Of a DNA stretch of 64,000 nucleotides, positions 34,355-54,432 are shown one piece after another. A model generated the notes under the pieces. The model had not been told where the DNA came from. It did no database searches and saw nothing but the letters and a program-made list of their open reading frames with translations. Position numbers and translations under genes: made by a program. Source of the DNA: an uncultured virus (IMG/VR IMGVR_UViG_3300032180_000385) (taxonomy: Duplodnaviria > Heunggongvirae > Uroviricota > Caudoviricetes); IMG/VR virus record IMGVR_UViG_3300032180_000385, positions 62,001-126,000 of that record. One strand, 5' to 3'. Position 1 is the first letter of the stretch. Every line of letters starts with the position of its first letter.

Positions 34355-35608
34355 TCAGGTAGAAGCTCCCTTAAAGAGCTTCACGGCGCCGGTGCGATCG
34401 ACCATAGTCCCATCACCACGGAGGATGGCCCTAAATGTCACGAGATCAGTGGAAAATGCGAAATCATCGCTACGCTCGAAGCGGACCCCGCCGACGAGCC
34501 GGACGAAATACTGGCTGAAGTCACCGAACGCGATGGGGGTCGCGCCGGTGGCGAGAGCGGGCATGAACGGGTCCGCGACGAGGGGCTTGCCGAGTAGCAG
34601 GTCGGGCGATCCGAGCACCGCGGAGGGCTCCCAGATCGGCCTGCCTACGGTGTCCGTGATCTTGCGGAATCCGCCGATGGTCTTGTCCGCCGCGAGCCAG
34701 TAGCAGCTGCGTGACTGACGATACGGTGCGATGACCGAGTACTCCAGGTCCACCAGGTTGGCGTAGCTGGGGGCACCCGCAACGCCGGTCGTAGCGCCGG
34801 TGACGCCGACCGAGTTGTTGATGATCCCGTAAGGCTGACCGGAACCGGTGCCGTTCACCAGGTCGGTGCCGAATGCGTTGCCCAGCGCGCGGCCGGCCTG
34901 CATGGCGAGATAGCCGAGCAGGTCGACGGCAGTGTCATCGATCAGCTCGCGAGCCACCTGCAGCATGATGCCGTACTTGTAAGCCGACAGCTGCTGCATG
35001 CTGAACGCCGGGTCGGAGGTAGCGAGGGCACCCGCCTGGGCCGCCGACGCCGCCGTGGAGTGCGCGGTCGTCTTCGGCACCTGCAGCGTCTCGCCGCCCC
35101 CGGTGTTGAGCACCGTAGGACCGCACTGCATGACCCCGGACACCTCGATGAGGTGCGCGATGAGCATGTCGTAGAAGTCTGTAGGCACAATGCTCGACGC
35201 GTTGGTGCCCTGTGTGCCTGTGGTCAGGACACGATAGTTGACCGGACCGCGGGCACTGGTGTCGTGCCGGAATTCCATCGCCCGGGGTGCGCCATCCTCG
35301 CCACGCGCCCACTTGCGGAATTCGCCTTCCAGGCCCTGCATCGCTGCCGGGACCGGGCGCTGATCGGCTGGCTTGCCGGAAAGCGCATCATAAGCAGCGT
35401 CCGCATCCTTGGCCCTCTTCTCGGTGTCGAGAACGGCCTTGATGCGAGTATCGAGGGTACCCATCTCCTCCTGCATGGCGTCCCAGCGGCCCTGCTCTTC
35501 GGGAGTGAAGGCCCTGTTCTCCTCGGCCGCGGTCTCGGCGATCTTCCTTGCCTCGTTCCAGACGCCGAGACGCCGGTCACGAAGCTTCTTCGCAACTTCA
35601 CTAGCCAT
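34355..35608 (-). CDS. major capsid protein, HK97 fold
   Basis: N-terminal coiled-coil delta domain; L.AYKYG...V.RELIDD, LVNGTG.GQP.GI, LLGKP, IAFGDFS.Y. Confidence 0.95.
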   Translation of the reverse strand: MASEVAKKLRDRRLGVWNEARKIAETAAEENRAFTPEEQGRWDAMQEEMGTLDTRIKAVLDTEKRAKDADAAYDALSGKPADQRPVPAAMQGLEGEFRKWARGEDGAPRAMEFRHDTSARGPVNYRVLTTGTQGTNASSIVPTDFYDMLIAHLIEVSGVMQCGPTVLNTGGGETLQVPKTTAHSTAASAAQAGALATSDPAFSMQQLSAYKYGIMLQVARELIDDTAVDLLGYLAMQAGRALGNAFGTDLVNGTGSGQPYGIINNSVGVTGATTGVAGAPSYANLVDLEYSVIAPYRQSRSCYWLAADKTIGGFRKITDTVGRPIWEPSAVLGSPDLLLGKPLVADPFMPALATGATPIAFGDFSQYFVRLVGGVRFERSDDFAFSTDLVTFRAILRGDGTMVDRTGAVKLFKGAST

Positions 35609-36781: not shown

Positions 36782-37474
36782 ATGACCAGTGGACGTAACC
36801 CTGACTACATCCCGGGCAAGACCTGCGAGAACTGCGGGAAGCCTATTCCGTGGCGTCCCGGGATAGAGGTGCGAGCGAGAGCCCGCTGGTGCAGCAAAGA
36901 CTGCTTCCAAACCGCTGGACGCGATGCTGCACCTAAGCCGTGTGAAAACTGCGGCAAGCCAATCCCGTGGCGGGAAGGCCGCGCAGCCCGTACTAAGGCT
37001 CGCTTCTGCTGCGACGCCTGTAAATTCGCTTGGCAGAAGCTCCACCCGCCGAATCCACGACAACCTCGGGAAACGAAGCCATGCGACACATGCGGCAAGC
37101 CTGTCGAGTACCTTCCATCCCAGAAGCTGGCAAGTAAGTACCCGAACGGAAACATCTACTGCTCCCGAGAATGCTTCGGTATCGGGCATTCTAAAACCAT
37201 GACGGGACGCCGTCCCAGCGGAGGCATCTATACCTCGCCCAGCACCTTCCGACTGATGATCCGACGCGAATTCTTCGACCGCTGCGCCATCTGCGGCTGG
37301 GACACAACCCCGTGCGACGTCGCGCACATCATCGATCGGAAAGACGGCGGACCCGACTCGCTGGAGAACGTTGTGATGCTGTGCCCGAACCACCACCGGG
37401 CCTTCGACATGAAGTTGATCCCCGTCGAGACAATCCGGCTGGCACGAGAAACGATCCTGCGTAATCATCAGTGA
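36782..37474 (+). CDS. HNH endonuclease with CxxCGK...CS..C repeats, antisense to the head operon
   Basis: CAICGW...DVAHI...GG.D..ENVVMLCPNHHRAFD; TGT-TATACT-N6-ATG. Confidence 0.85.
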   Translation: MTSGRNPDYIPGKTCENCGKPIPWRPGIEVRARARWCSKDCFQTAGRDAAPKPCENCGKPIPWREGRAARTKARFCCDACKFAWQKLHPPNPRQPRETKPCDTCGKPVEYLPSQKLASKYPNGNIYCSRECFGIGHSKTMTGRRPSGGIYTSPSTFRLMIRREFFDRCAICGWDTTPCDVAHIIDRKDGGPDSLENVVMLCPNHHRAFDMKLIPVETIRLARETILRNHQ

Positions 37475-40159
37475 TCACCGTGCCCGTTTCCGTTACCATT
37501 CATTGATCCGGCCAGGACTGACCGCTCCGCATCGGACGGTATCCACGCCCCAACGTATTCAGGCTCGACCTTTTCCGCACGAGCCCGTCCTTCACGCGCC
37601 AGCGCCCGCAGGACAGCTATCAGACCATCCGTGGACAGATCTCCGGCATCTCGCGTCTTCGTCAGAACGGCTGCAAGCAATGATGCGGGAGATTTCGCAG
37701 ACGGCTCAATATTAGGCTGCGCGATACCTTCCTGCTGAAGCTTTTCCAGCCGGTCTGCGGCTAGGTCCATCTCCAGCGTAATCTGGGGAAGCATGGAGTT
37801 CGGAATGCCGCGAATAGAGTGAGCCATCGCGACCATGACATCCGCCGGGATAACCTCATTGCCTGCCCCGCCTGGAAGTGGCCCCATGTCTTCCTTCTCG
37901 CGAATCTCGTCGATGGTCAGGATCCCCGTGTCCCGCTGAGACTCGTAGATCTCCGTCCGGGTCTTCAGATCAGTCTTCAGCAGCGCGTCAGAATTAAAGC
38001 GAACGTACCGGTTAGCGGGAATAATATCGAAGAACGCGGTCTCTAGCCTAACCATCCACGGACGCAAGGATTCAATGACCTGAAGGGTACTCATCTCTAC
38101 CGTGTTGCCAGTAAAATAGCAGGTGCCGTTCCGACGCGCATACCAAGACTTACTTGGCGTACTTACACACCATACAAGATCTGTAACCTCGTCGGTCACG
38201 TACTCCGGATGACCCTTCGGCTTACGCCACGGTGAAATCTGAATCGGCATAACATACATACCATGCTTATTCGGTCCCCGTACCACGCCCGAGCGTCCAG
38301 ACAGTGCGCAGGCAACCTGGAACGCATCAAGCCGCGCTTTATCCTTCTGTGCCATCGTCCAACTTGCGGCATGCCGAGAGCCATCAGCATCGAGGGACGT
38401 TTGAATGAAAAGCTCAAGCTGTGCCCTGGTAAGCTGGCTCAGAAATTCCGTAGAAACTACCTTAGCAGGAGCATGCTTTGTCAGCACCTGCCCAGCTTGC
38501 GCGTTCAACCTGAAATGCACGTGCCCCCGCTCGTCCAGGTCTTCCTGCCATGCCGGACCGCCATCGTGCTGTCCCGTAAGACCATTTCGCAGATTTCGCA
38601 CCACACTCGCGTGTGAACCGCACTTCCGAGCTATTCCCCGATTCGTCCCACTCGGATCACGAAGTAGCTCAACCCGGATAAGATCCCGCTTCTTCCGCCC
38701 ACGCCCGCCTAGCAACGAAACGCCACGCTCTACAGCACTTGGCCCAAACATCTCCGTCAGCGCTGCCCTAATCCGCATTACGTTCAGCGGGTTCACTCGC
38801 TCCGACTGAGCAATTGTCACGGCACCTGATTCCCCGATCCATCCCTCTGTCCAGAACCAAGCCACCAACTCAGCTAGTGCGTCCGACCACTTCGGCTCTA
38901 CCGGAGTCACAACCGGAGCCGCCGCGCAGACCCGCGAATTAATCGGCATAGTTTCTGTAGTTCGCCACTGGTAACCTTCGTTTCTGCGCCTTTCCCCAGA
39001 CAACATCACAGGCCAACGATGATTTGGCGTGGTTACCGACGAATGTGACAGGTTCTCCAGGCGGATAACCGGATAAGACGCGTCATCAAAAACATGTACC
39101 TTTTGAACTGGCTGCCATTCAGCCATACCCGTTTCAGTATTCAGTCCAAGACAAGTGTCCCCGGCAAGCACCTGATCGTGCCTCAGCCAACCGCGCAAGG
39201 TTAGGATTTCCGTCTCAGCATCAGCGCAGTTGTAGGTTAGACTGTCAGCCCTTTTCCCGCCAACGCGATCCGGAGGAAGCCCATAAATGGCAGCAAGCTG
39301 GGTAGCGCTAAACTGCTGACTCTCGATGAATTGAGCTTCAGACGGCGGAACTGTTATCGGCTTGTATTCCCAGTCTCGACCGTAGACGAGTGGCGTATGG
39401 TTCCGGATCGCATCGACTAGCTGCTCCTTGATCTGGTCAGACGCATCCTTATCCACTTCCAGCTGATTATTCTGAAAGGTGCCTGGTGGAAAACCACCGG
39501 AAGCGAACCAGTCGTTGCCAAACCGCTGGGCTTCCGTTCCCGACGAGATCGTCAGCATGAAATGCCGTAGCGGAGAAATACCCTCCGTACGGCCGGGGAG
39601 CGTAAATGCCCGGATATGAAAAAGCTCGTCACGCCAGTTTTCAATCAACCGTCCGTAGACGTACACCCGGGTACGAAGGGGATTCCATGGCTGCTGCGGG
39701 TCATCAATGACGTTAACCATGTCCGGCGGAATCCAATCGATTCCAGTCGGGTAACTAAAGCCATCGCGACCGGTGACGAAACCCCAGGCGTTTCCGTGCA
39801 GGAGCAGTGATGTCATGCACTGGTACACCCAGTCAAAGGTGTTCGCGCTGACTGATGGCCGATCAAAAATAGACGGTCCCCAGTACCTGGCCGCAACGCC
39901 ACCGCCGGGGGCTCGTGTGTAAAGCTTGATTGGCAGGCTGGCGAGAGATTCGGCTAGCAACCGGACGCAGGAATAGAGTGCCGGAAGACCGAGTGCCTGA
40001 TCCTGGCCGTAGAACGCCCGGGACGGATGAATCGGCCCACCTTGCGAAAATTTGAAGTAAATAGGGTGAATCCCATGGACGAATTAATCGCCATGGAACT
40101 CCGCCGATAACGCGCTGCTCAACACTTCTGTCAGCCAAGATGCGATCAAGGAAACCCAT
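37468..40159 (-). CDS. portal protein (HK97 family) with an intein; 5' end frameshifted near 40060
   Basis: ALYSCVRLLAESLASLP, LLLHGNA, ELFHIR...GISPL, EAQFIES...IYGLPP, GILTIDEIR; N-terminal MGFLDRI...EQR lies in a different frame. Confidence 0.9.
38104..39228 (-). mobile_element. intein with LAGLIDADG-like endonuclease (375 aa) in the portal
   Basis: TYN|CADAETEILTLRGW...TTPNHRW...WFWTEG...LDADG...YFTGN|TVE. Confidence 0.9.
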
Positions 40160-40200: not shown

Positions 40201-40893
40201 ATGGGTAGAGGGACGCCGGACCTGGCAGATCAAAAATTCGGGCGCCTGCGGGTGCTGACGCGAGACTGGGACGCTCCTGGTCCACATGCTCAATGGCTGT
40301 GCTGGTGCGACTGTGGCACGATGACTTCGGTAGCTAGCAGCGCTCTGCGCTCGGGTGCAACACAAAGCTGCGGCTGCCTGCACAGTGAACGAACGGCAAC
40401 ATCGAACGCAGCTCGCGCAGGCTATAGCGCGCCTATCCGCAGGAACACAAAGCCCCGACCTAGCTTGGCTGACCCAACAGTATGGCGCAGTAGCTCCCGA
40501 TCCTACGGAAGCTGGATTAACATGATTCGCCGTTGCACGCACATGAACGATCCGCGATACCCCGAATGGGGTGGACGAGGTATCACTGTCTGCGAACGCT
40601 GGTTGTCCTTCGACAATTTTCTGGCCGATATGGGAGAACGTCCGCCTAAAATGTCCCTGAACAGAATCGATAACAACGGGAACTACGAACCCGAAAACTG
40701 CAACTGGGCTACATCTCATGAGCAACAGATGAACACCAGGAGCTTTAAACTGATACCCGAAGTGGTAGCCGAGATCAAACGTCTCCGCACAACTGGACTG
40801 ACACTGGACGCGATTGGAACGAAGCTCAACCTGCATCGCAATACTGTGTCGCGAGCCCTGAGCGGGAAGACGCGGCAGCGTAGCGGTAAGTAG
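40201..40893 (+). CDS. HNH endonuclease, antisense, inserted between the portal leader and the portal start
   Basis: FGRLRVL...WLCWCDCG...SCGC, YGSW.NM..RC...[19 protein letters not shown]...[26 protein letters not shown]6-ATG. Confidence 0.9.
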
Positions 40894-41081: not shown

Positions 41082-41384
41082 TTAAACTTTGCTGTTGTCC
41101 TGAGATCGCGACCCGGCTGCCGCCTGCCGAACTGACTTTTCGGTCTGCCGAACGTCCCACCCGGTACCATCCCGCCAGCCACGGCGTACCGCTATCGCAA
41201 AAATAACCAGGCCGTTATGCCACACCCATAGCGCACCGATGACAAGCACAAGCCACACGCGCCCCAATACAAAACCTGGAACCCAGCAAAGCCAGAGAAC
41301 CACGGCAAGAACTATCTGCGAAAACCTGACCTTCTTAGCGCGGACCGTAATCTCGCTCAGCGGCAGAAACTTCAGCGTTGTCAT
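41082..41384 (-). CDS. small membrane protein between terminase and portal
   Basis: Long hydrophobic/Trp-rich segments; ATGA coupling to TerL. Confidence 0.6.
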   Translation of the reverse strand: MTTLKFLPLSEITVRAKKVRFSQIVLAVVLWLCWVPGFVLGRVWLVLVIGALWVWHNGLVIFAIAVRRGWRDGTGWDVRQTEKSVRQAAAGSRSQDNSKV

Positions 41385-43129
41385 ACCGGCATCCTAAGGC
41401 AGATGTTCTCCGCTAAGCGCACAGAGCTGAGAAGGTCGTAGCCGCGCCTCTTCTTCCCGAGCGCCCAGCTAGCCAGGGTAACGGCAACGATCGGCGTAAT
41501 ATCAGCCTCGCTGTCGCGTCGTGACCAGCCGCGCCCGCCATCTCCGATCTGCCGGGTTTCGGCACTGCCGATCGCAGACCACAGCACAGGTGCCTGCTCC
41601 CTGCCGAGATGAATGACCTGGCGATCACGGATGCCGGTGACAATCTGAGCAAATGCAGCAGCCTCATCAGCACTGCCGGCCGCCAGCACTTCAATCCCTG
41701 CCTGCTCTGCCGCGTCAATCAGCCCGGCCGCCGGTCCGTTCTTCGGAATGCAGACAGCAGCAGGATGGTACTCGCGGTTCAGCTCGACAAGCCGGGGGAT
41801 GACCCAGTCCGTACCCTCGCGAGAGCAGCCGCGGGGGATCTCCAGCACCGTTCGATACCTCGTCCTCGGTGGTGACAGAGGAAATTTTTCCTCGAGCTTC
41901 GGCTCTGGCCGTTCCCAGGCCGCTCCGATAGTAGTGACAGTCATCTCCGGGTTGACATCAACCGCGAAGGCCAACGGTCGGACCGCACCACCGGGATCTC
42001 CCAGGGCACACTGACTCCAGGCTTCTTCGGAGACGACCGCCCAGGCTTCCTCTTCGGCCGGCCAGTCGCCAACGCTGAGGATCTCACGGTCAAACTGCGC
42101 CATGGTCATCGTCGCGAATTCCTTGGCCGTCTGCTCATAGCTGATCCTGGTACCCAGGGCAGGATTCGCCTTCGCCCAGGATCGCGGGTCATCCCGGTCA
42201 TCATGTCGGTCGCAGACGATGTACCGATTGGTCTTCCGGCCAAGCACCTCATCGCGCGGGCAGGTATCGAGGTGCGGGTCGATCGACCACTCGGCACCCA
42301 TCAGCGTCTGATCTTGACGCATGATCCGGCGCCGGACGAGGGCAAGCTGAATGCTATCGTGGTAGCCCGCTGAAGCGGTATAAATGACCTGCGGATTAGG
42401 AACCGCGCGCATGGTCGGCAAAGACGCCCCAACTTGCTCATCGGTCAAAAACATTGCCTCGTCATAGACGACCGTATCAGCTGTGAAACTTCGCCCGGAA
42501 CCGCGAGAGCGAGCCAGAAAACGAAGTCGGCTACCAACGCTACGCCGAATCATCTTGCCGCCTTGTCCAAAGATAAGCGTCGGCGCTGGCTTCAACTCGA
42601 TTGACTCTTCACCATGACTGGTAATAACCCGGTGAACGCGCCTTCTCAGCTCATCATAAGCGGAGATAGTATCCTGAACCCGGCGGAAATGCTCAGCAGC
42701 AGCCTTGAACTCATGCGCGGTATGAATAATCATCCGCTCGCCGAATACAAAAAGCCCGCCTATCTCCCGAACTTCCAAATTTTGGTTCTTACCGTTCTGC
42801 CTGGCAACAATTGCAGCGTTCTCAAAAGCAGCCCACCTTCCATCAGGCTTAGTCCCGCAGCATTCGCCGAGCCACCATTCCTGCCATTCATCAAGGCTGT
42901 ACCCGACGGTAGGAGCCCAGTCCAGTAGCTCTTCCGATGCGTGGTTCCCGCAACCTGACTGGTACCCGTTCTGCTTACCGCGCCAGCACGCCCCGCACTT
43001 CGGGTCGATCTCCCGATGCCTGGGGGGAGCGGTCCAGAACCGCGGCATCTGGCTGCCGACTAGCTGACCGTGCAGGATCGACCCGTCGGGCAGGTAAACG
43101 TCAGGCACCGCGACGAGGTGAACGCTCAT
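41381..43129 (-). CDS. terL: terminase large subunit
   Basis: LDEWQ, Walker A VARQNGKN, HTAHEF, Walker B VVYDEA, YTASAG, WAKANPALG, nuclease FAVDV and DITP.VA.TLA. Confidence 0.95.
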   Translation of the reverse strand: MSVHLVAVPDVYLPDGSILHGQLVGSQMPRFWTAPPRHREIDPKCGACWRGKQNGYQSGCGNHASEELLDWAPTVGYSLDEWQEWWLGECCGTKPDGRWAAFENAAIVARQNGKNQNLEVREIGGLFVFGERMIIHTAHEFKAAAEHFRRVQDTISAYDELRRRVHRVITSHGEESIELKPAPTLIFGQGGKMIRRSVGSRLRFLARSRGSGRSFTADTVVYDEAMFLTDEQVGASLPTMRAVPNPQVIYTASAGYHDSIQLALVRRRIMRQDQTLMGAEWSIDPHLDTCPRDEVLGRKTNRYIVCDRHDDRDDPRSWAKANPALGTRISYEQTAKEFATMTMAQFDREILSVGDWPAEEEAWAVVSEEAWSQCALGDPGGAVRPLAFAVDVNPEMTVTTIGAAWERPEPKLEEKFPLSPPRTRYRTVLEIPRGCSREGTDWVIPRLVELNREYHPAAVCIPKNGPAAGLIDAAEQAGIEVLAAGSADEAAAFAQIVTGIRDRQVIHLGREQAPVLWSAIGSAETRQIGDGGRGWSRRDSEADITPIVAVTLASWALGKKRRGYDLLSSVRLAENICLRMPV

Positions 43130-44246
43130 GACTCAGCCCAGGCACTCCTTGTCCGAAGGTTGCCTGGCTCCGGTTCCGAGAGGAACGGCCGCAGGATAAC
43201 GCTAGTTTAAACCCCATCAAGGCACGAGCCTCATCGATGGTCATCATCCCCCGGTTAATCTTAACCATAATCCGTGCCAGTGCTCGGCCGAATTCCTGGT
43301 CCGGCTCGGGCAGCTCGCCGCGTCGCACGGTCCCATCGGGCAGAAAGACATCCGGTACGACAACAAGATGCGCAGCCATGGCTCAGACCCCGTTGCCACT
43401 AATAAGACTGACCTGGTTCGTCCGGCAGACCGGCATGCCCACAAGAGCATCCAGATACAGGGACCTCCGGAAAGACGAATCTGAAAACTGTGAACTCATG
43501 AAATTAAACGGAAGGGGCGCGGAAAGGAAGCCCGGAATGATCCCGGCTGTCAGGGCAGGCTCATATGTGTACTCGCCACCGCCCCCGCCCGCAGGCAGCT
43601 CGCCACGTCGCACAGTCCCATCGGGCAGAAAGACATCCGGTACGGCAACAAGCCTCATGACCATTGTTCCTCGCTGAGCAGAAGAATCTGAGCCTCATGA
43701 TAAGTAATCCACCCATAACTGAGTGCTGTCTTAACTTGCCTTATACGCCGCTCCCTGCTCGTCTCAGGTGGCTTCCCGCGCCGCACAGACCCATCCGGCA
43801 GGAAGACATCGGGCACAGCGACAAGACGAATGGTCATGCCAGATCACTCATCTGGGTCTTGAGTTTTTCCATGATCGCAGCCTGGCTTTTCAGTGTCTGT
43901 TGCAGCTTGTCCGCAACCTCCGTTACCGCCGCAATAGCCATGATGATCTGACACATCTGAGGTACCCGATGCTTTCGCTGCTCCAGCCAGTCGGCCAGAT
44001 CACCACGCCGCGCTGTGCCATCGGGCAGGAAAACATCGGGTACGGCAACGAGGCGAACGGTCATAACTCTCTTCGCCCCTTGCTGATCCGAAATGTCGGC
44101 TCAAAGCCAGCCTCAACGAGCAAATTCTTGAAGACAGCCAGTCTCCCGAGCCGATGTTTCCACTTGTAAGGCAACGCCTGCTCCCCATGCAAAACGGTAC
44201 CGTCGGGCAGGAAAACATCGGGTACGACAACGAGGTGAACGGTCAC
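43101..44246 (-). repeat. tandem array of five mini-ORFs (44061-44246, 43834-44064, 43655-43837, 43383-43664, 43101-43379), each starting with a copy of the TerL N-terminal ~22 codons
   Basis: MxxxLV[AV]VPDVFLPDG[TS]xxxG at every start; TerL itself starts MSVHLVAVPDVYLPDGSILHG. Confidence 0.85.
43164..43194 (-). promoter_or_regulatory. late-leader hairpin motif, copy i (terL leader)
   Basis: TAAACT-N9-CTGCGGCC-[GTTCCTCTCGGAACC]-GGAGCCAG, then AAGGAG. Confidence 0.65.
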
Positions 44247-44530
44247 TGCGACGCTGCCCCCGCAAGACGCTTCTCCCGCCGCGCCCGGATCTCATCTGTC
44301 TGATCGCCCTTCACCTCGCCAGGCGCCATCTTCCGAAGCTGGTCGAGAGACAACCGGACCTCCCGAGCGAACCCGGCCGCATCACGCGGAGCGAGACCGC
44401 CTTCATCCAGGATCCTGGCAGCATGGAGTGCTACAGCGGCTACTCCGCCGCTTCGCATCTTCACCGGCAGCTCCAGCAGATCGGAGAGTACCGCCGTCTC
44501 GATCGGTCCGCAGTACTTAGAAGTTGTCAT
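44243..44530 (-). CDS. terS: terminase small subunit (actinophage type)
   Basis: Helical protein ending ARILD...A...RE.R..L...DEIRARREKR; upstream of terL. Confidence 0.65.
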   Translation of the reverse strand: MTTSKYCGPIETAVLSDLLELPVKMRSGGVAAVALHAARILDEGGLAPRDAAGFAREVRLSLDQLRKMAPGEVKGDQTDEIRARREKRLAGAASQ

Positions 44531-44983
44531 TCCTCATCATCGTCCTTACCGCAGCATTCCCTGCGTTCCCAGCCTCCGTCGCCATCCGTGATACGCTATG
44601 AGAACCCAGGAGCAAGAGTGTCCATGTCCCTCACGATACCCCCAGAAAGTCGTCATGACCCTCGTAACTATCCGGATTCTCTGGATGGACGACAAGAAAA
44701 CCACTCTGAAGGATGTCACCACCAGCGTGCGCGAAGGCGTCCTGCACGTCCATCGGTACCGTGACAATAGCATCATCCACGAGTGGCACCTCCCCATCGC
44801 CAACATCCGGTGGTGGACACCTGTACGAAACGGCGATCCGGAGCCTACCCTAGAGACATAAAGAGCTACTGCCATGCCTGCCATACCTGGGCTTCACTCG
44901 ACCTCGCCTGGATGTGCTCACCGTGCTCCGCCGGCTGGTACGCCCGGCCCCGTCGCTCTGCCCTACTGATGGAAGAGTCACTC

Positions 44984-45697
44984 ATGCCCTTGCTCCTCGA
45001 CGGCTGCTGTGGTGCAGGAGGTGCCGCACGGGGGTACACCGAGGCCGGATTTGAAGTCTGGGGTGTCGACAGCAACCCGCGGCTCGAACGGGACTACCTC
45101 GCCTCCGGTGCCACCCGGTTCTTCTGCGCAGACATCCTCGAAGTCCTGGAAGACCCGTTCTTCCTTCGCAGCTTCGACCTCGTCCACGTAAGCCCGCCTT
45201 GCCAGGGCTACTCAAAAATGTCAAATTGCCGACCGGGACTCGCTGACAGGTACCAGAAACTGATCAGCCCAGTACGCGACCGGCTGGAAGCAAGCGGCAA
45301 GCCCTTCGTCATCGAGAACGTCTCCGGTGCCCGCCCGTGGCTTCGCGATCCGGTAACGCTGTGCGGGGAGATGTTCGGCCGCCGGGTCTACCGGCACCGG
45401 CTGTTCGAGCCCGGCGGAGGACTCACGCTGTCAGCGCCTGTGCCCGGACAACTAAGACAGCTCGCTGAAAAGCAACCTAACAGGGAATGCGGCTGGGTGC
45501 ACCCCGTAGCGGCGGCGAAGGCCGGGCACTGGCGGCCAGGCGCGTACGTATCGGTAAGCGGACACGAAAGGAAAGAACCCGTCCGCGAAGCGATGGCTAT
45601 TGACTGGATGAGCAATCGGGAAGACATCAAGGAAGCAATCCCCCCATACATGAGCAACTTTCTAGGACTTCAAGTACTAGAACAACTAACAGCATAG
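44984..45697 (+). CDS. short C5-cytosine DNA methyltransferase-like protein
   Basis: LLDGCCGAGGA..GY..AGF.V.GVD, SPPCQ, IENV, RHRLFE, EAIPP. Confidence 0.8.
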   Translation: MPLLLDGCCGAGGAARGYTEAGFEVWGVDSNPRLERDYLASGATRFFCADILEVLEDPFFLRSFDLVHVSPPCQGYSKMSNCRPGLADRYQKLISPVRDRLEASGKPFVIENVSGARPWLRDPVTLCGEMFGRRVYRHRLFEPGGGLTLSAPVPGQLRQLAEKQPNRECGWVHPVAAAKAGHWRPGAYVSVSGHERKEPVREAMAIDWMSNREDIKEAIPPYMSNFLGLQVLEQLTA

Positions 45698-45708
45698 GAG
45701 TTAACCAG

Positions 45709-46359
45709 ATGATGCGAGACGTCCAGATGGAACTAGGGCGTGCTATCAGATTTATTGACGGCGCTCCCGACATTACCGGACTGCCTTGCGATAAAATAGA
45801 ATCGGAAGAAGCGGGGGAGTACATGCGCCGCTATCATCTAGAATTTTCTCGGGACCGCTGCATCCGCTTCCATCACATACTAACCTCTGACCCCGAGATT
45901 GACCTGCATGATCATCCTTGGGATTTTGCATCAGTCATGCTAGCTGGTTCCTACGTCGAAATTACCCCTGACGGGCCGGTAACGTACGAGGCTCCGTGCG
46001 TCATCACCCGGACAGCCAGGCAGCTGCACCGCCTAGTGCTAGCCGAACCTGTGTGGACCTACGTCATCTGCGGCAAGGTTCAACGCAAATGGGGTTTTGC
46101 TACTGACCATGGGTGGGTGCCCTGGGATCAGCACGGGAATACCCGCGACACCAGCTCCTGCGGAAACTTAATGCACCTTACCGTACGAGAAAAAGCCCTC
46201 ATCGCTCATTCTCTCCGGGCGACCGCCGCAAACCTTGACCAAGAAGCCAGATCACATAGATTCAGGCACGGTCGGTGGGCAGAACACCGTACGGCTCTTC
46301 ACGAAGAAGCACACGAACTGCGCGAGCTAGCCGAAAGATTCGAAAACGGAAAACCGTAA
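45709..46359 (+). CDS. cupin-like metal-binding protein
   Basis: FHHILTSD...LHDHPWDF.S..L.G.Y.E...HRL...WGF. Confidence 0.6.
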   Translation: MMRDVQMELGRAIRFIDGAPDITGLPCDKIESEEAGEYMRRYHLEFSRDRCIRFHHILTSDPEIDLHDHPWDFASVMLAGSYVEITPDGPVTYEAPCVITRTARQLHRLVLAEPVWTYVICGKVQRKWGFATDHGWVPWDQHGNTRDTSSCGNLMHLTVREKALIAHSLRATAANLDQEARSHRFRHGRWAEHRTALHEEAHELRELAERFENGKP

Positions 46360-48303: not shown

Positions 48304-50107
48304 CTACCTCTGTCGCAGCCGTGCGGCAACATTCTTGTTAAGAACGTAGCGCCTAGTGTGAACCCACTGGCAGGTACCGCACCAGAATCCTCCCTCGTGC
48401 CCGCACGGACACTGGCACAGAGCAGCCGCCCGGCACTCCTGGCAGTCTGCTGGACCGCAGAACCGCCCGACCGAATTCCGGTGCCTGGGAGGGTAGTGCT
48501 CGAACATCCCCGCCTAACCTTCCATGCCAATACCTCGCTGCTGATGGTAGTCCCGCCATGCCGTCAAGGCCTCCGGTGTCGTCCACCGTGACCGCACCTC
48601 AATCGGAGCCTCAGACCGACAGCAGTTGCAAGTCACCTCAATCTGCCCGCTCCTGCTCCCGTAACGCCTGCTACTAGCATTCTGATAAAACCTGATCACA
48701 ATCTGATGAGCAGCAGACAAATCCTCCGGCAGCGGCAGATAAGGAAGAACCCCCGGCATTAGCCTCCTGACCTCTTCCTGAGCGCATCAATTTTTTCCAG
48801 AACATCCGCGTACGCGTCTGATCTGCCTCGCTTGTAGTCAACCTGCACCCCGGCGCATCCGTCATCGGCACGGGCCTTCATGTAGGTATCACGCCAGCCT
48901 TCCGCCGAAGACCACAGCTCGCGCCGAAGGGCGACTACCGTGAACGGATCGACCCCGTATCTCCGGAACAGCCAGCCTCTCAGCCTGATGATCACACTCA
49001 TCCGAGCACCTCCGCCCGAAACGGATCGCCTGGATCCCACCCGCAATGCCGTGCCATCATCAGATCGTACCGTTCCTGGAACTTCTGGTTCCTCACATGT
49101 GCCTGCCGCGCGGGGCACCCGACCCCCTCACAATGCCACCAGCCTGCCGCCACGGCCTCCGTAGTCTGCGCTACAGCGATCAGCCTGTCCCGGGTCCTTG
49201 GTGAGATGTCCTGCGCAGCTTTCTCGACGATCCGCAGCAAGTCGGCCCTGCTGATAGTAAAGCTCATGTCCCCGGCTGCCCTCTCCGCACGGTTCCGTCA
49301 GGCAGGATAACATCCGGAACGACGACGAGACGAGGCTGACCCAGCAGCCAAACTTTCTCCAGCGAGAAAATCTTCCGGATAAGAATATCTCCCTGTGAAT
49401 CGTCCCACTCATCAGCAGTAACAATATAGCTCGATCCCAGCGGGGGAGGCTCGGTATGCCATTCCTCGATATACCGAAAGCCTGATGCTTGCACCAAAAC
49501 CCTGGAAACTACCTCACTCATCCAAACGCCCCCGGGCTGGTCATCGCGTGCAACCGTCGGCCTACCTCACCGGCCACCGCCAGCTGGAACGCTGCCTGAG
49601 TACGCTCTAGTCCGAGATCGGCCGGAATCGGTACCCTCGTACTCTCCTGGCAGAAGACGACCTGACCATGCGTCGCGCCGCCCATCACCCGTCCGACCAC
49701 AGTCGCGGTCGCCCGATCCGCTGTTTCCCGGACCGCCGCGTCCCATGCCTGCCGGAAGTCATCGTGCTCCAGCGCGAACAGTGTCACGTGGATAAGGTCG
49801 TTCGTCTCTTCCATGCTTACTCCCGCCCTTCAGCGTAGCCTGGACCGCGAAGCTCCTGCTGTCCCTTCCAGCTCACTCTACGCTCCAGCTCGTCCTGCGC
49901 TGCCTGTTTCAGCAGCCCGGCCGCCTTCGCCAGCCGCTGCAAATCCTTACTGTCTTCTAGCCAGCGCATCTCAGCATAGACCTCACCCGGAATATCATTC
50001 AAAGCGTAGGCGAGTGCCCTGGCGGAAACCGCCGTTATCTGCGTTGCCGGATCTCTGCCTGAATCGTCCATAACAGCTTTCCTTTCCAGATGCCGGAACC
50101 CGGCCAC
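48304..50107 (-). CDS. run of small coupled hypothetical genes (48304-48507, 48514-48759, 48759-49001, 48998-49267, 49264-49521, 49518-49814, 49817-50107)
   Basis: ATGA-type overlaps; 49264-49521 ends in a TerL-N-like peptide. Confidence 0.45.
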
Positions 50108-52415: not shown

Positions 52416-54017
52416 TCAGATATCTCCTCGCGCGTGATCTGCAAGCAGGGTCGGAATAGCTGAGTCAAAACCCGAGACATCGAGTTCTCGTCCATCCTCG
52501 GGACGAGCGATGCTGAACTCAGTCGGCGAGATCGCGATGACCTGAAGCCGGGCGTCGATGCCCATCTTCTGCCGGTACTCTTCCAGAGCCTGATGCGGGT
52601 GAATCGGACCGTACCAGGTCTCCCCATCCGTCCACACTCTGAAAACATCCGCTTGCACTCGGTGACGAGTCGCCCAGGTCATCGGCGCCGCGCAGTCAGT
52701 GGATCCGCCCCAGACGCTCATGATCTTGGCGATAACGGCGTCAAGGCGCATCCGCGGCGACAGGTCGATCGGAAGCAGTTCGGTGCTGAAGGTGAACATG
52801 CCGGAATACGGCTCGGTCTTCTGGGTGACCATGGCCATGGCAGCGACCGCCTCGACGGCGGTGAACGGGTACCCGGCAATCGCCCAGCCCATCGAGCCAG
52901 ACGTGTCGGTGGCGTTGACGATCCGCTTTCCGGACGGCTCAACCGAACCGTAGGCCGCGTAGAATCCCGCATCGCAGGCGTCGGTGATGACCGGAACCGG
53001 GGTCCAGGTGCCGCCCCTGCCGCGCATCGGACGGCCGGCCGCGTATGCCTTCAAGGTGAGCAGCATCTCAACAGGATGGATGCGAGCCTTCGCCAGTCCG
53101 GCCGAGTCGGCGATCCTGGTGGCGACGTCGCTGGTCAGGCTGTCCATCGGGGCGAGCACGCCGAGCCGGGTCAGCTTGGCCAGGTTGCGAGTCAGCGCGC
53201 CCAGCGGAACGTTGCCGTTCGCGATCAGCGCCCGCCATACGTCAGCGTTCCCCGTTGCCTCGGACGGCAGCATCTCGTGCGACAGGGAGCGACAGCCCTC
53301 GATGATCGAAACCCACTCGCTGACGTCCTGGGTGGCGTGCGCAGCTGCAGCAGCCTGGACAACCGGAATCCCGGCCAGCTCATCGCCGAGAACGCCCTTA
53401 GCGATGTAATTCCACAGAGCCTGCTGCCGCGTGTTGCCGTGGTGCTGGACGTGCGCGAGCCGGATCAGGTCACGCTGCGCCCACTTATCCCGCTGCTTGT
53501 ACTTGAGCACCTGGTAGGCGGCACCCTCAGTGCTCTGGCCGGTGTACCAGTTACGGACGCCCTTGATAAGCTGCGGACCCCAGCCGCGGAACATCTCCGC
53601 GTACAGCGCGTACTTCAGGATGTGACCGCCGGTGCGCGCGACCTGCGGCAGTGCCCACAGGGCATGAGCGCGAGCCTCAGTGCTGCCCAGGCCGGATGCC
53701 GCCGCGAGAGCGAAGAGCGCTGGGTCGTTGCACGGTGCCCGGCCCGCCTGGCTGATCGCTACCGCATCGTTGACGAGTCGCGGATCGGATGCCTTTGCGA
53801 GCTTGGTGACTACCCCGGCATTATCACGGGTGAGATCACGCTCGGTAACGTAGTACGTTCCGCCTTCGACCCCCAATGTCAAAAACCTGTTGAGCCGCGC
53901 GTAATCGTCGATGACGAAGACAAACCCGCCCGCGTTGTTCTTGACCTGGTCCTCACGGGCCGGCTCGGACTGCGGAGTGCGCCTCGGGGTGACATGACGC
54001 TCCAGCGCGCTGCTCAT
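52416..54017 (-). CDS. rsr: Ro60/Rsr ortholog (TROVE + vWA domains)
   Basis: QVKNNAGGFVF...RLNRFLTLG.EGGTYY, GWG, KY.QR..W..RDL.RLAH, AL.RNL.KLT, ARIHP, MIDAS DTSGSM, GSTDCAAPM, TDGETW.G.IHP..AL..YR; GAAAGGA RBS. Confidence 0.95.
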   Translation of the reverse strand: MSSALERHVTPRRTPQSEPAREDQVKNNAGGFVFVIDDYARLNRFLTLGVEGGTYYVTERDLTRDNAGVVTKLAKASDPRLVNDAVAISQAGRAPCNDPALFALAAASGLGSTEARAHALWALPQVARTGGHILKYALYAEMFRGWGPQLIKGVRNWYTGQSTEGAAYQVLKYKQRDKWAQRDLIRLAHVQHHGNTRQQALWNYIAKGVLGDELAGIPVVQAAAAAHATQDVSEWVSIIEGCRSLSHEMLPSEATGNADVWRALIANGNVPLGALTRNLAKLTRLGVLAPMDSLTSDVATRIADSAGLAKARIHPVEMLLTLKAYAAGRPMRGRGGTWTPVPVITDACDAGFYAAYGSVEPSGKRIVNATDTSGSMGWAIAGYPFTAVEAVAAMAMVTQKTEPYSGMFTFSTELLPIDLSPRMRLDAVIAKIMSVWGGSTDCAAPMTWATRHRVQADVFRVWTDGETWYGPIHPHQALEEYRQKMGIDARLQVIAISPTEFSIARPEDGRELDVSGFDSAIPTLLADHARGDI

Positions 54018-54057
54018 CAGAAAAATCCTTTCTCGTACTGCGATATAAAAGCAGAAG

Positions 54058-54129
54058 CCCTGCGGGCATAAGAACGGCTGACGGATTGCCATGGTTTGAG
54101 TGATAACCGTCTGCCTCCGGCTCGCAGGG
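54058..54129 (-). ncRNA. Y-RNA-like unit 1 (minimal, no tRNA domain), ~40 nt upstream of the rsr start
   Basis: CCCTGCGAGCCGGA...GGTTATC...TATGCCCGCAGGG; termini pair. Confidence 0.65.
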
Positions 54130-54135
54130 TGCTGC

Positions 54136-54432
54136 TCAGAACTGCGTCTCGGTAAGAGCCTCAACGATGGTGATCTCCGGCGGGCCTTGCGCACCGACTT
54201 CCGCGATGAATGACTGCAGAGCAGGGTTGGCGAAGAACTGCTGGAACTGCTCCGCGGTCTCCCACTCGTCGACGACCACGACGATGCCGTCGCCGATGCC
54301 GAACTGGTGATGGAGCGCGCCCTGTGACTGGCTTGAATCGGTGATTTCCGTGAACACAGCGGCCCGATCGGTCAGGGCCTGACGGAACACTGCGGTATCA
54401 CCGGGGAACTTCATGATGACGAGTACGCTCAT
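54136..54432 (-). CDS. ABM-like dimeric alpha+beta barrel protein inside the Y-RNA array
   Basis: MSVLVIMKF...GALHH...VVVVDEWETAEQFQQFF; RBS region duplicates that of rsr. Confidence 0.6.
   Translation of the reverse strand: MSVLVIMKFPGDTAVFRQALTDRAAVFTEITDSSQSQGALHHQFGIGDGIVVVVDEWETAEQFQQFFANPALQSFIAEVGAQGPPEITIVEALTETQF

What the first reader, a model, noticed from the sequence alone, without database searches (positions are those of the whole stretch)
43101..44246. Array of five mini-genes between terS and terL, each a TerL N-terminal peptide fused to a different cargo
Seen: five consecutive ORFs, mostly coupled by stop/start overlaps, start with MxxxLV[AV]VPDVFLPDG[TS]xxxG, the first ~22 residues of TerL, then diverge into unrelated 40-70 aa tails. 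The peptide is conserved despite synonymous nucleotide differences, consistent with selection on protein. Inference: either serial capture of cassettes at the terL 5' end, or functional tags/decoys that dock on TerS or the packaging motor, or that titrate host sensors. Known: Avs-type defences detect terminase and portal proteins.
Basis: partly seen in the sequence, partly recalled or inferred. Interest (0 to 1): 0.8.

Follow-up and report, generated by a model that had tools for sequence, protein, structure and literature searches.

The report
Terminase-tagged virion-fragment mini-genes
A large soil phage keeps five tiny genes that each begin with the same short peptide as its DNA-packaging motor, and in it and its relatives that peptide is often joined to a scrap of the phage's own capsid or portal protein, which may act as a decoy.

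Summary
The array is real. Five coupled ORFs lie between the presumed terS and terL, each starting with the 22-residue TerL N-terminal peptide; a further copy ends an ORF 5 kb upstream. The copies are conserved as protein, not DNA (pS 0.62, pN 0.10). A tag-only search of 1.84 billion proteins found 13 short tagged proteins from elsewhere: 10 carry a diverged piece of the major-capsid N-terminal scaffold coil, 2 a portal-like motif, 1 resembles ORF c4. In the window, c5 and c3 belong to the portal-like class (link to portal weak), c4 may carry a glycine-rich tail-protein motif (p about 0.03), and c1 and c2 are unassigned. The tag also appears at C-termini and inside a TerL loop, so it is a portable module. 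Best reading (0.5): translated self-mimics that act as decoys for host sensors or parasite proteins that recognise packaging and head proteins. Rivals are own-assembly helpers, address labels or relics. No expression or binding is shown. My literature searches found no such system described.

The parts
44243..44530 (-). presumed small terminase (95 aa); stop overlaps c1 start
   Evidence: family conserved upstream of terL in relatives; name inferred, no library hit
44061..44246 (-). c1: tag (44181-44246) + 39-aa cargo of unknown origin
   Evidence: cargo unassigned
43834..44064 (-). c2: tag (43999-44064) + 54-aa cargo that looks coiled-coil by eye, unknown origin
   Evidence: not a capsid-scaffold fragment (102 of 500 shuffles score as high); no homolog in 25 other records
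43655..43837 (-). c3: tag (43772-43837) + cargo of the portal-like G-x-I-T-x-x-E-A class
   Evidence: 7.4 bits against a leave-out profile, 0 of 500 shuffles; look-alike P0039 from another contig
43383..43664 (-). c4: tag (43599-43664; likely start 43658) + cargo that begins like the glycine-rich repeat of the phage's own Gly_rich_2 proteins
   Evidence: best own-genome match is the 1104-aa Gly_rich_2 protein; 10 of 300 G-run-preserving shuffles score as high; look-alike P0011
43101..43379 (-). c5: tag (43314-43379) + portal-like cargo + read-on tail overlapping terL by 29 nt
   Evidence: 29.7 bits against a leave-out profile; only PHROG hit of the 39-aa core is portal phrog_12, E 0.13
41381..43129 (-). 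large terminase (582 aa); residues 1-22 (43064-43129) are the source tag, a predicted beta-hairpin, followed by a Cys4 insertion
49264..49521 (-). c7: 85-aa ORF upstream of terS with the tag at its C-terminus (about 49276-49341)
   Evidence: untagged homolog in L038, E 8e-6; look-alike domain with the tag at the N-terminus in G029, by eye
37468..39960 (-). portal protein with a large insertion (probably an intein); likely source family of the c3/c5 cargo motif
   Evidence: Pfam Phage_portal E 2e-48; motif alignment
34355..35608 (-). HK97-type major capsid protein; its residues about 5-61 are the cargo of most tagged mini-genes in relatives (no such mini-gene found in this genome)

Best explanation
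The five ORFs are translated late mini-proteins, made in a coupled chain with terminase. Each has two modules. The first is a portable 22-residue beta-hairpin peptide copied from the TerL N-terminus. The second is a fast-evolving cargo that, where it can be traced, is a fragment of one of the phage's own virion proteins: the capsid scaffold coil, a portal motif or N-terminus, possibly a glycine-rich tail repeat. SHOWN: the anatomy, protein-level conservation of the tag, its portability, and the capsid origin of the commonest cargo in relatives. INFERRED: that they are expressed, that the tag is a docking peptide (TerS is the first candidate, as in P22), and the function. Most likely they are self-mimics: cheap, abundant decoys that bind non-self factors recognising packaging and head proteins (host sensors or proteases, or the hijacking proteins of a satellite or rival phage) without completing the interaction. 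The terS-terL gap would then be an expandable decoy locus whose cargoes turn over in an arms race.
For: Tag: pS 0.62 vs pN 0.10; 4 of 6 junctions are 4-nt overlaps. Of 36 hits of a tag-only profile, 6 are the window's own, 15 are tagged proteins from elsewhere and 15 are other proteins, mostly with LPDG-turn repeats (5 read, 10 not read). Of the 13 short foreign ones, 10 carry a capsid-scaffold fragment, 2 the portal-like motif and 1 a c4-like cargo. 16 of 16 scaffold-class tails have the MCP N-terminus as top hit among 1229 long frames, 14 of 16 at iE < 0.01 (5 of the 16 were found with a profile of that class). Clear portal fragments occur in variant-tag proteins P0040 (iE 2e-8) and P0041 (iE 3e-4). 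4 of the 6 PHROG families hit by the 10 portal-like tails are portals. The fragments are 27-54% identical to their best MCP match and 32% to each other, while the 52 MCP segments average 77%, yet the frames stay open and end at about the same place. Untagged scaffold fragments and a TerL-ATPase copy without the Walker A motif also occur in the clade.
Against: No expression or binding data. In the window itself c1 and c2 have no traceable cargo and c4 is only suggestive (10 of 300). The portal link of c3/c5 is weak: profile-profile E 0.025, probability 1.9%; no portal among 6 PDB hits; clade portals only at iE 8.5 or worse; 6 of 10 class members, c3 among them, hit no portal family. Characterised Avs sensors bind folded cores such as the MCP A-domain and leave variable extensions unbound (PMC13581612 section 12), so these fragments are poor decoys for them. 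The tag is a gain of one TerL sub-clade; 13 of 44 aligned TerLs lack it, so it is not an unavoidable trigger that needs a decoy. Such fragments should also disturb the phage's own assembly. Most relatives do without: only 4 of 39 other records show a clear extra tag copy outside TerL (many are fragments, and variant tags such as those in L013 are missed).
Confidence: 0.5

Rival explanations
1. Accessory factors of the phage's own head assembly and packaging. The tag binds TerS or the motor and the cargo co-assembles with scaffold or portal, tethering or timing packaging, or tuning prohead nucleation or size.
For: Location in the terminase operon with coupled starts. In HK97, scaffold residues 2-66 form the coiled coils that bind the portal wing (PMC10275583 passages), about the span kept in the fragments. 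In P22 the TerS site on TerL maps to the first 23 residues (PMC9611059 passage).
Against: Cargoes diverge far faster than their parent proteins, unlike partners of a conserved machine. Number and type differ between close relatives and most show none. This genome has no scaffold-fragment gene.
Confidence: 0.22
2. The tag is an address label like the T4 capsid-targeting sequence. It delivers arbitrary small effectors to the packaging site or into the virion, and the virion-fragment cargoes are only one subset.
For: One domain carries the tag at the C-terminus here and, by eye, at the N-terminus in G029, and untagged homologs exist. c1 and c2 cargoes match no virion protein. T-even internal proteins share only a targeting sequence (PMC3012670 passages).
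Against: 12 of the 13 short foreign tagged proteins from the tag-only search carry capsid- or portal-like cargo, not diverse effectors. Terminases are not normally virion components (established knowledge). Tag copies inside a TerL loop (L013, L015, L016) fit avidity better than addressing.
Confidence: 0.12
3. Relics of repeated duplication of the terL 5' end with deletion into downstream genes. They persist because coupled ORFs keep ribosomes moving to terL, and the proteins themselves do little.
For: Tandem tag duplications within TerL in L013, L014 and L024. A tag fused to the end of the gene just before terL in G030. Two ENA proteins share their first 83 residues and then continue into TerL or into another cargo (P0004, P0005). 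Cargoes are highly diverged.
Against: Relics would lose amino acids as fast as synonymous sites, but the tag does the opposite. 16 scaffold-fragment proteins with 32% mean identity keep the same register and length, and one folds as a confident helical hairpin (mean pLDDT 87).
Confidence: 0.12
4. A DNA-level cassette array (integron-like or recombination-site repeat) whose repeat merely happens to be coding.
For: Repeat-cargo-repeat layout. c4/c5 share 30 nt and c1/c2 24 nt exactly, so recent duplication or conversion occurs.
Against: Third codon positions vary in 16 of 17 columns. The consensus fold has a covariation term of only -0.14 kcal/mol. No promoter-like site in 42900-45000.
Confidence: 0.03
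5. Assembly artefact.
For: Metagenomic record. Laying the one public run gave no contig (about 40% of the run was read).
Against: Copies are diverged and share at most 30 nt exactly; a second record is letter-identical across the array. Look-alikes of c3 and c4 exist from other data.
Confidence: 0.01

Closest known systems
T-even internal proteins (IPI, IPII, IPIII) with the capsid targeting sequence (PMC3012670, passages read)
   Same: Small, diverse accessory proteins sharing only a short N-terminal peptide; anti-defence role shown for IPI*.
   Different: Here the peptide is the N-terminus of the large terminase, it also occurs at C-termini and inside TerL, and the cargoes are often copies of virion-protein fragments. 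Packaging into virions is not shown.
T4 vs.8 and the Ksap1/2 non-terminase activators of Avs2 (PMC13601566, passages read)
   Same: A phage keeps a partial paralog or structural look-alike of its terminase; the authors raise an anti-defence role as one possibility.
   Different: vs.8 is a whole ATPase-like domain with intact Walker motifs and activates Avs2. The ORFs here carry only 22 residues of TerL plus a second fragment, in a coupled array.
P22 TerL N-terminal TerS-binding segment, first 23 residues (PMC9611059, passage read)
   Same: Position and length of the tag.
   Different: No sequence relation was tested, and binding of this tag to TerS is not shown. No copying onto other proteins appears in the passages read.
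Satellite capsid-redirecting paralogs such as SaPIbov5 Ccm (PMC8569155, abstract start in listing only); CpmB as a scaffold mimic (recalled)
   Same: Homologs or mimics of head proteins used to interfere with assembly.
   Different: Those are encoded by the parasite, and Ccm is a capsid-protein homolog. These are 40-60 aa fragments in the phage's own terminase operon.
HK97 MCP scaffold (delta) domain (PMC10275583, passages read)
   Same: The commonest cargo in relatives matches the N-terminal coiled-coil part of an HK97-type MCP.
   Different: Free-standing, lacking the rest of the scaffold and capsid fold, fused to the TerL tag, and far more diverged.

Membership tests
T-even internal proteins with CTS | shared short N-terminal peptide on otherwise diverse small proteins | tested here: met
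T-even internal proteins with CTS | peptide is the T4-type CTS, separate from core packaging genes | tested here: not met
   the peptide is the TerL N-terminus of this clade
T-even internal proteins with CTS | packaged into the head and ejected with DNA | not testable with these tools
   needs virion proteomics
Terminase-like Avs ligands (vs.8, Ksap) | folded terminase-ATPase-like domain | tested here: not met
   c1-c5 share only residues 1-22 with TerL; the tails do not match a TerL profile
Anti-Avs or other anti-defence proteins | binds or blocks a host defence protein | not testable with these tools
   host unknown; no assay
Integron-like cassette array | conserved DNA recombination site with a covarying hairpin | tested here: not met
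Integron-like cassette array | adjacent recombinase | tested here: inconclusive
   none among the neighbours scanned; the whole genome was not searched for one
MCP scaffold-fragment cargo class | tail homologous to MCP residues about 5-61 | tested here: not met
   met for 16 of 16 tagged proteins from relatives but for none of c1-c5 (c5 8 of 500 shuffles at 2.6 bits)
Portal-fragment cargo class | tail homologous to the portal C-terminal G-x-x-T-x-x-E motif | tested here: inconclusive
   c5 and c3 join the class; class-to-portal link weak; clear only for P0040 and P0041
TerS-binding N-terminal segment (P22 type) | binds the small terminase | not tested
   no complex prediction was obtained

The most novel reading that the evidence does not exclude
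Phages build modular self-mimic proteins by fusing a docking peptide from an essential protein (here the terminase N-terminus) to fragments of their own capsid, portal and tail proteins. They keep them in an expandable, translationally coupled array that works as a rapidly updated decoy library against host pattern sensors or satellite hijackers: a peptide-level repeat-and-spacer system.
Probability: 0.35. Interest if true: 0.9.

Novelty: categorically new. Interest (0 to 1): 0.74.

Why it matters
Bacteria are now known to sense most core phage proteins (PMC13581612). These proteins cannot easily change, so how phages evade such sensing is an open question. A family of natural 55-90 aa proteins made of a conserved tag and fragments of capsid, portal or tail proteins gives direct, cheap reagents to test decoy-based evasion or assembly interference. 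If they instead help the phage's own assembly, they point to a TerS- or motor-docking peptide and to scaffold and portal surfaces used in prohead nucleation. The function is unproven; the architecture is well supported.

Tried and rejected
Pfam and PHROG scans of c1-c5 and their tails: nothing below E 0.009; the best was phrog_2106 minor tail for c5, E 0.0096, not followed up. tblastn of the c4 and c5 tails against the phage collection: no match and E >= 3. PDB sequence searches of the c3, c4 and c5 tails: 0, 1 (E 1.2) and 0 hits. The tag profile finds only generic LPDG turns in PDB. ESM Atlas for c1 and c2: no usable hit. My by-eye ideas that c1 is a portal piece, c2 a scaffold piece and the c4 end a capsid piece failed the profile tests. 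A tape-measure-like motif seen by eye in P0011 scored 40, near the null mean of 38, and was dropped. Whether each tag tracks its own TerL is mixed: own TerL ranked 1-3 of 25 for 5 of 10 copies and 6-18 for the other 5; the script stopped before 2 further copies. An all-against-all search for fragment genes drowned in shadow frames (825 rows, output cut) and was not used. Foldseek of the scaffold-fragment model: no hit at E <= 0.001; a helical hairpin is generic. No RNA holder listed; laying the one DNA run gave 0 contigs. A TerS-tag complex prediction could not be obtained, so there is no verdict on binding. Literature searches for decoys, mimics or fragment paralogs listed 1, 4, 6, 9 and 6 papers; none described this arrangement in title or abstract start. 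One was read by passages (10.1101/2025.06.06.658234). The library lacks most subscription papers, and no supplements were read.

Full report
Setting. The window lies in G000, a 128,987-base virus record. Proteins encoded by the window sit on a 222,744-base contig, and a second record of the same phage, G001, extends about 56 kb further left with ORFs that look phage-like by eye, so the phage is probably larger than G000. TerL is about 28-35% identical to Rhodococcus, Arthrobacter and Mycobacterium phage terminases and 40% to one in a Streptomyces genome; an actinobacterial host is inferred. The head module on the - strand reads presumed terS, array, terL, portal, protease, HK97-type MCP.

Observation. 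Five ORFs fill the terS-terL gap and each starts with the first 22 residues of TerL. A whole-genome search finds exactly 7 copies; the seventh ends ORF 49264-49521. Four of six junctions are 4-nt stop/start overlaps. Across 17 core codons pooled pS is 0.62 and pN 0.10, so the peptide, not the DNA, is conserved; the copies were, however, picked by protein likeness. No covarying RNA or DNA hairpin was found. Copies share at most 30 nt exactly, and the array is identical in G001, so it is not an assembly repeat, though G001 may derive from the same sample.

The tag in relatives. A TerL search gave 53 loci, one of them this phage. In an alignment of 44 TerLs the tag goes together with a Cys4 insertion in one clade (SH-aLRT 99, quick tree); 13 rows outside it lack both, one row inside keeps only a remnant, and three are cut at the N-terminus. 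AlphaFold2 models the tag as a short beta-hairpin (pLDDT about 80 for residues 11-20). It is portable. It is tandemly duplicated at the TerL start in L013, L014 and L024, appears degenerate in a nuclease-domain loop in L013, L015 and L016, and ends the gene before terL in G030. It also starts a gene in G029 whose domain resembles, by eye, the one it ends here. Of 40 records searched, 31 have a match. Only G001 has the array; G003, G011, G029 and G030 have one clear copy outside TerL, and G006 and G018 have weak LPDG-only second matches that I did not examine. Many records are fragments.

The cargo. In L025, L014 and L097 a tagged ORF in the terS-terL gap continues with a diverged copy of the MCP N-terminal coil, and in L013 a variant-tag ORF continues with a portal fragment. 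A tag-only profile against 1.84 billion representatives gave 36 hits: 6 own, 15 tagged proteins from elsewhere, and 15 others, mostly LPDG-turn repeats, of which 5 were read. Of the 13 short foreign ones, 10 carry the MCP fragment, 2 the portal-like motif and 1 a c4-like tail; the 2 longer ones are in-frame fusions of tag, portal-like motif and tag, followed by TerL or another cargo. Follow-up searches added 5 MCP-class and 4 portal-like proteins. All 16 MCP-class tails hit the MCP N-terminus first, 14 at iE < 0.01. They are 27-54% identical to the best MCP match and 32% to each other, against 77% among 52 MCP segments. One models as tag plus helical hairpin, mean pLDDT 87. Untagged MCP fragments occur in G005/G006, G033 and G023, and L135 has a TerL-ATPase copy without the Walker A motif.

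The window's own cargoes are less clear. c5 and c3 score 29.7 and 7.4 bits against a profile built without them, 0 of 500 shuffles each. That class hit 6 PHROG families, 4 of them portals, best E 0.07, through 4 of 10 members. It aligns to the clade portal at positions 295-317 with E 0.025 but probability 1.9%, and finds no portal in PDB. I therefore call it portal-like. The c4 tail best matches the phage's own Gly_rich_2 protein; 10 of 300 shuffles that keep the glycine run do as well. c1 and c2 stay unassigned. P0039 and P0011, look-alikes of c3 and c4, both have a longest contig of 1414 bases, which suggests a second array; I did not see that DNA.

Mechanism. Coupled starts and protein-level conservation imply translation with the late genes (inferred). 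A peptide that is kept at either end of a protein and inside a loop behaves like a docking module. In P22 the TerS site on TerL is its first 23 residues (PMC9611059, passage), which makes TerS the first candidate partner; this is untested here. The recurring cargoes are interaction surfaces of head proteins: in HK97 scaffold residues 2-66 form the coils that bind the portal (PMC10275583, passages). Fast divergence with intact frames, patchy presence and changing number fit decoys against a non-self binder better than parts of the phage's own machine, so I put that at 0.5. Against it, characterised Avs sensors bind folded cores and not extensions, although Lit and CapRel read short MCP motifs (PMC13581612 sections 12 and 13); the tag is a lineage gain rather than an unavoidable trigger; and two of five cargoes here mimic nothing I could find. 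Own-assembly helper (0.22), address label (0.12) and relic (0.12) remain open.

Comparison and novelty. It works like the T-even internal proteins in having one tag and many cargoes (PMC3012670, passages), and like T4 vs.8 in being a partial terminase paralog (PMC13601566, passages), but it fails the defining tests of both. Five literature searches listed no description of terminase-tagged virion-fragment genes; most subscription papers are not in the library and no supplements were read. Three earlier notes of this scan report capsid- and portal-fragment mini-genes in other large phages, two of them with a shared tail motif. They are unchecked AI notes, I did not test them, and they are leads to convergence, not support. 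The names ThrRS TGS domain, intein, HNH and CpmB are recalled and come from no call.

Verdict. The architecture is well supported and apparently undescribed; the function is unproven. Interest 0.74.

Noticed in passing
L135 15395 onward (G034): A 246-codon frame encodes a diverged copy of the TerL ATPase region (profile positions 62-249, E 9e-18) lacking the Walker A motif, several kb downstream of the real terL; possibly an inactive terminase mimic.
   Followed up: no
L016 7470-8039; L234 657-902; L235: Untagged copies of the MCP N-terminal coil: just after terL in G005/G006, as an 81-aa ORF far from the head genes in G033, and at the start of a roughly 280-aa ORF in the terS-terL gap of G023.
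   Followed up: partly
L013 4452-4894: Two coupled ORFs with a variant tag (V-V-P-D-P-L-x-F-P) and portal fragments; P0041-P0043 share this variant, and P0041 joins the portal N-terminus to the portal-like C-terminal motif.
   Followed up: partly
L080, L082-L084, L086, L090, L091, L093, L098, L100: 10 of 23 metagenome matches to the tag pattern are the N-terminus of a cellular protein that I recall as threonyl-tRNA synthetase (TGS domain). Probably a shared generic beta-hairpin; mimicry of it was not tested.
   Followed up: no
window 43000-43060 (TerL residues about 36-58): A C-x-x-C ... G-C-G insertion, likely metal-binding, is restricted to the same TerL clade as the tag.
   Followed up: partly
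window 37468-39960 and 40201-40893: The portal has an insertion of about 350 aa (probably an intein; a related insertion lies in another gene of the genome). A + strand ORF with an HNH-like look and a C-terminal HTH lies between terL and portal.
   Followed up: no
L223 13936-14766 (G001, outside G000): Phage-encoded 276-aa protein with two Clp_N repeats (E 3e-37), like the N-terminal domain of ClpC; could be an adaptor or decoy for the host protease.
   Followed up: partly
G000 frame starting at genome position 49200, - strand (outside the window): A 5181-codon open frame with a tape-measure-like motif (label recalled), which would mean a very long tail.
   Followed up: no
window 52416-54194, 44984-45697, 45709-46359: RNA-binding protein (phrog_850), DNA methyltransferase (phrog_363) and cysteine-dioxygenase-like gene (phrog_4786) upstream of terS.
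   Followed up: no
P0004 and P0005: Identical for about 83 residues, then one continues as TerL and the other as a different cargo; either alleles with different cassette number or a misjoin at the repeat.
   Followed up: no
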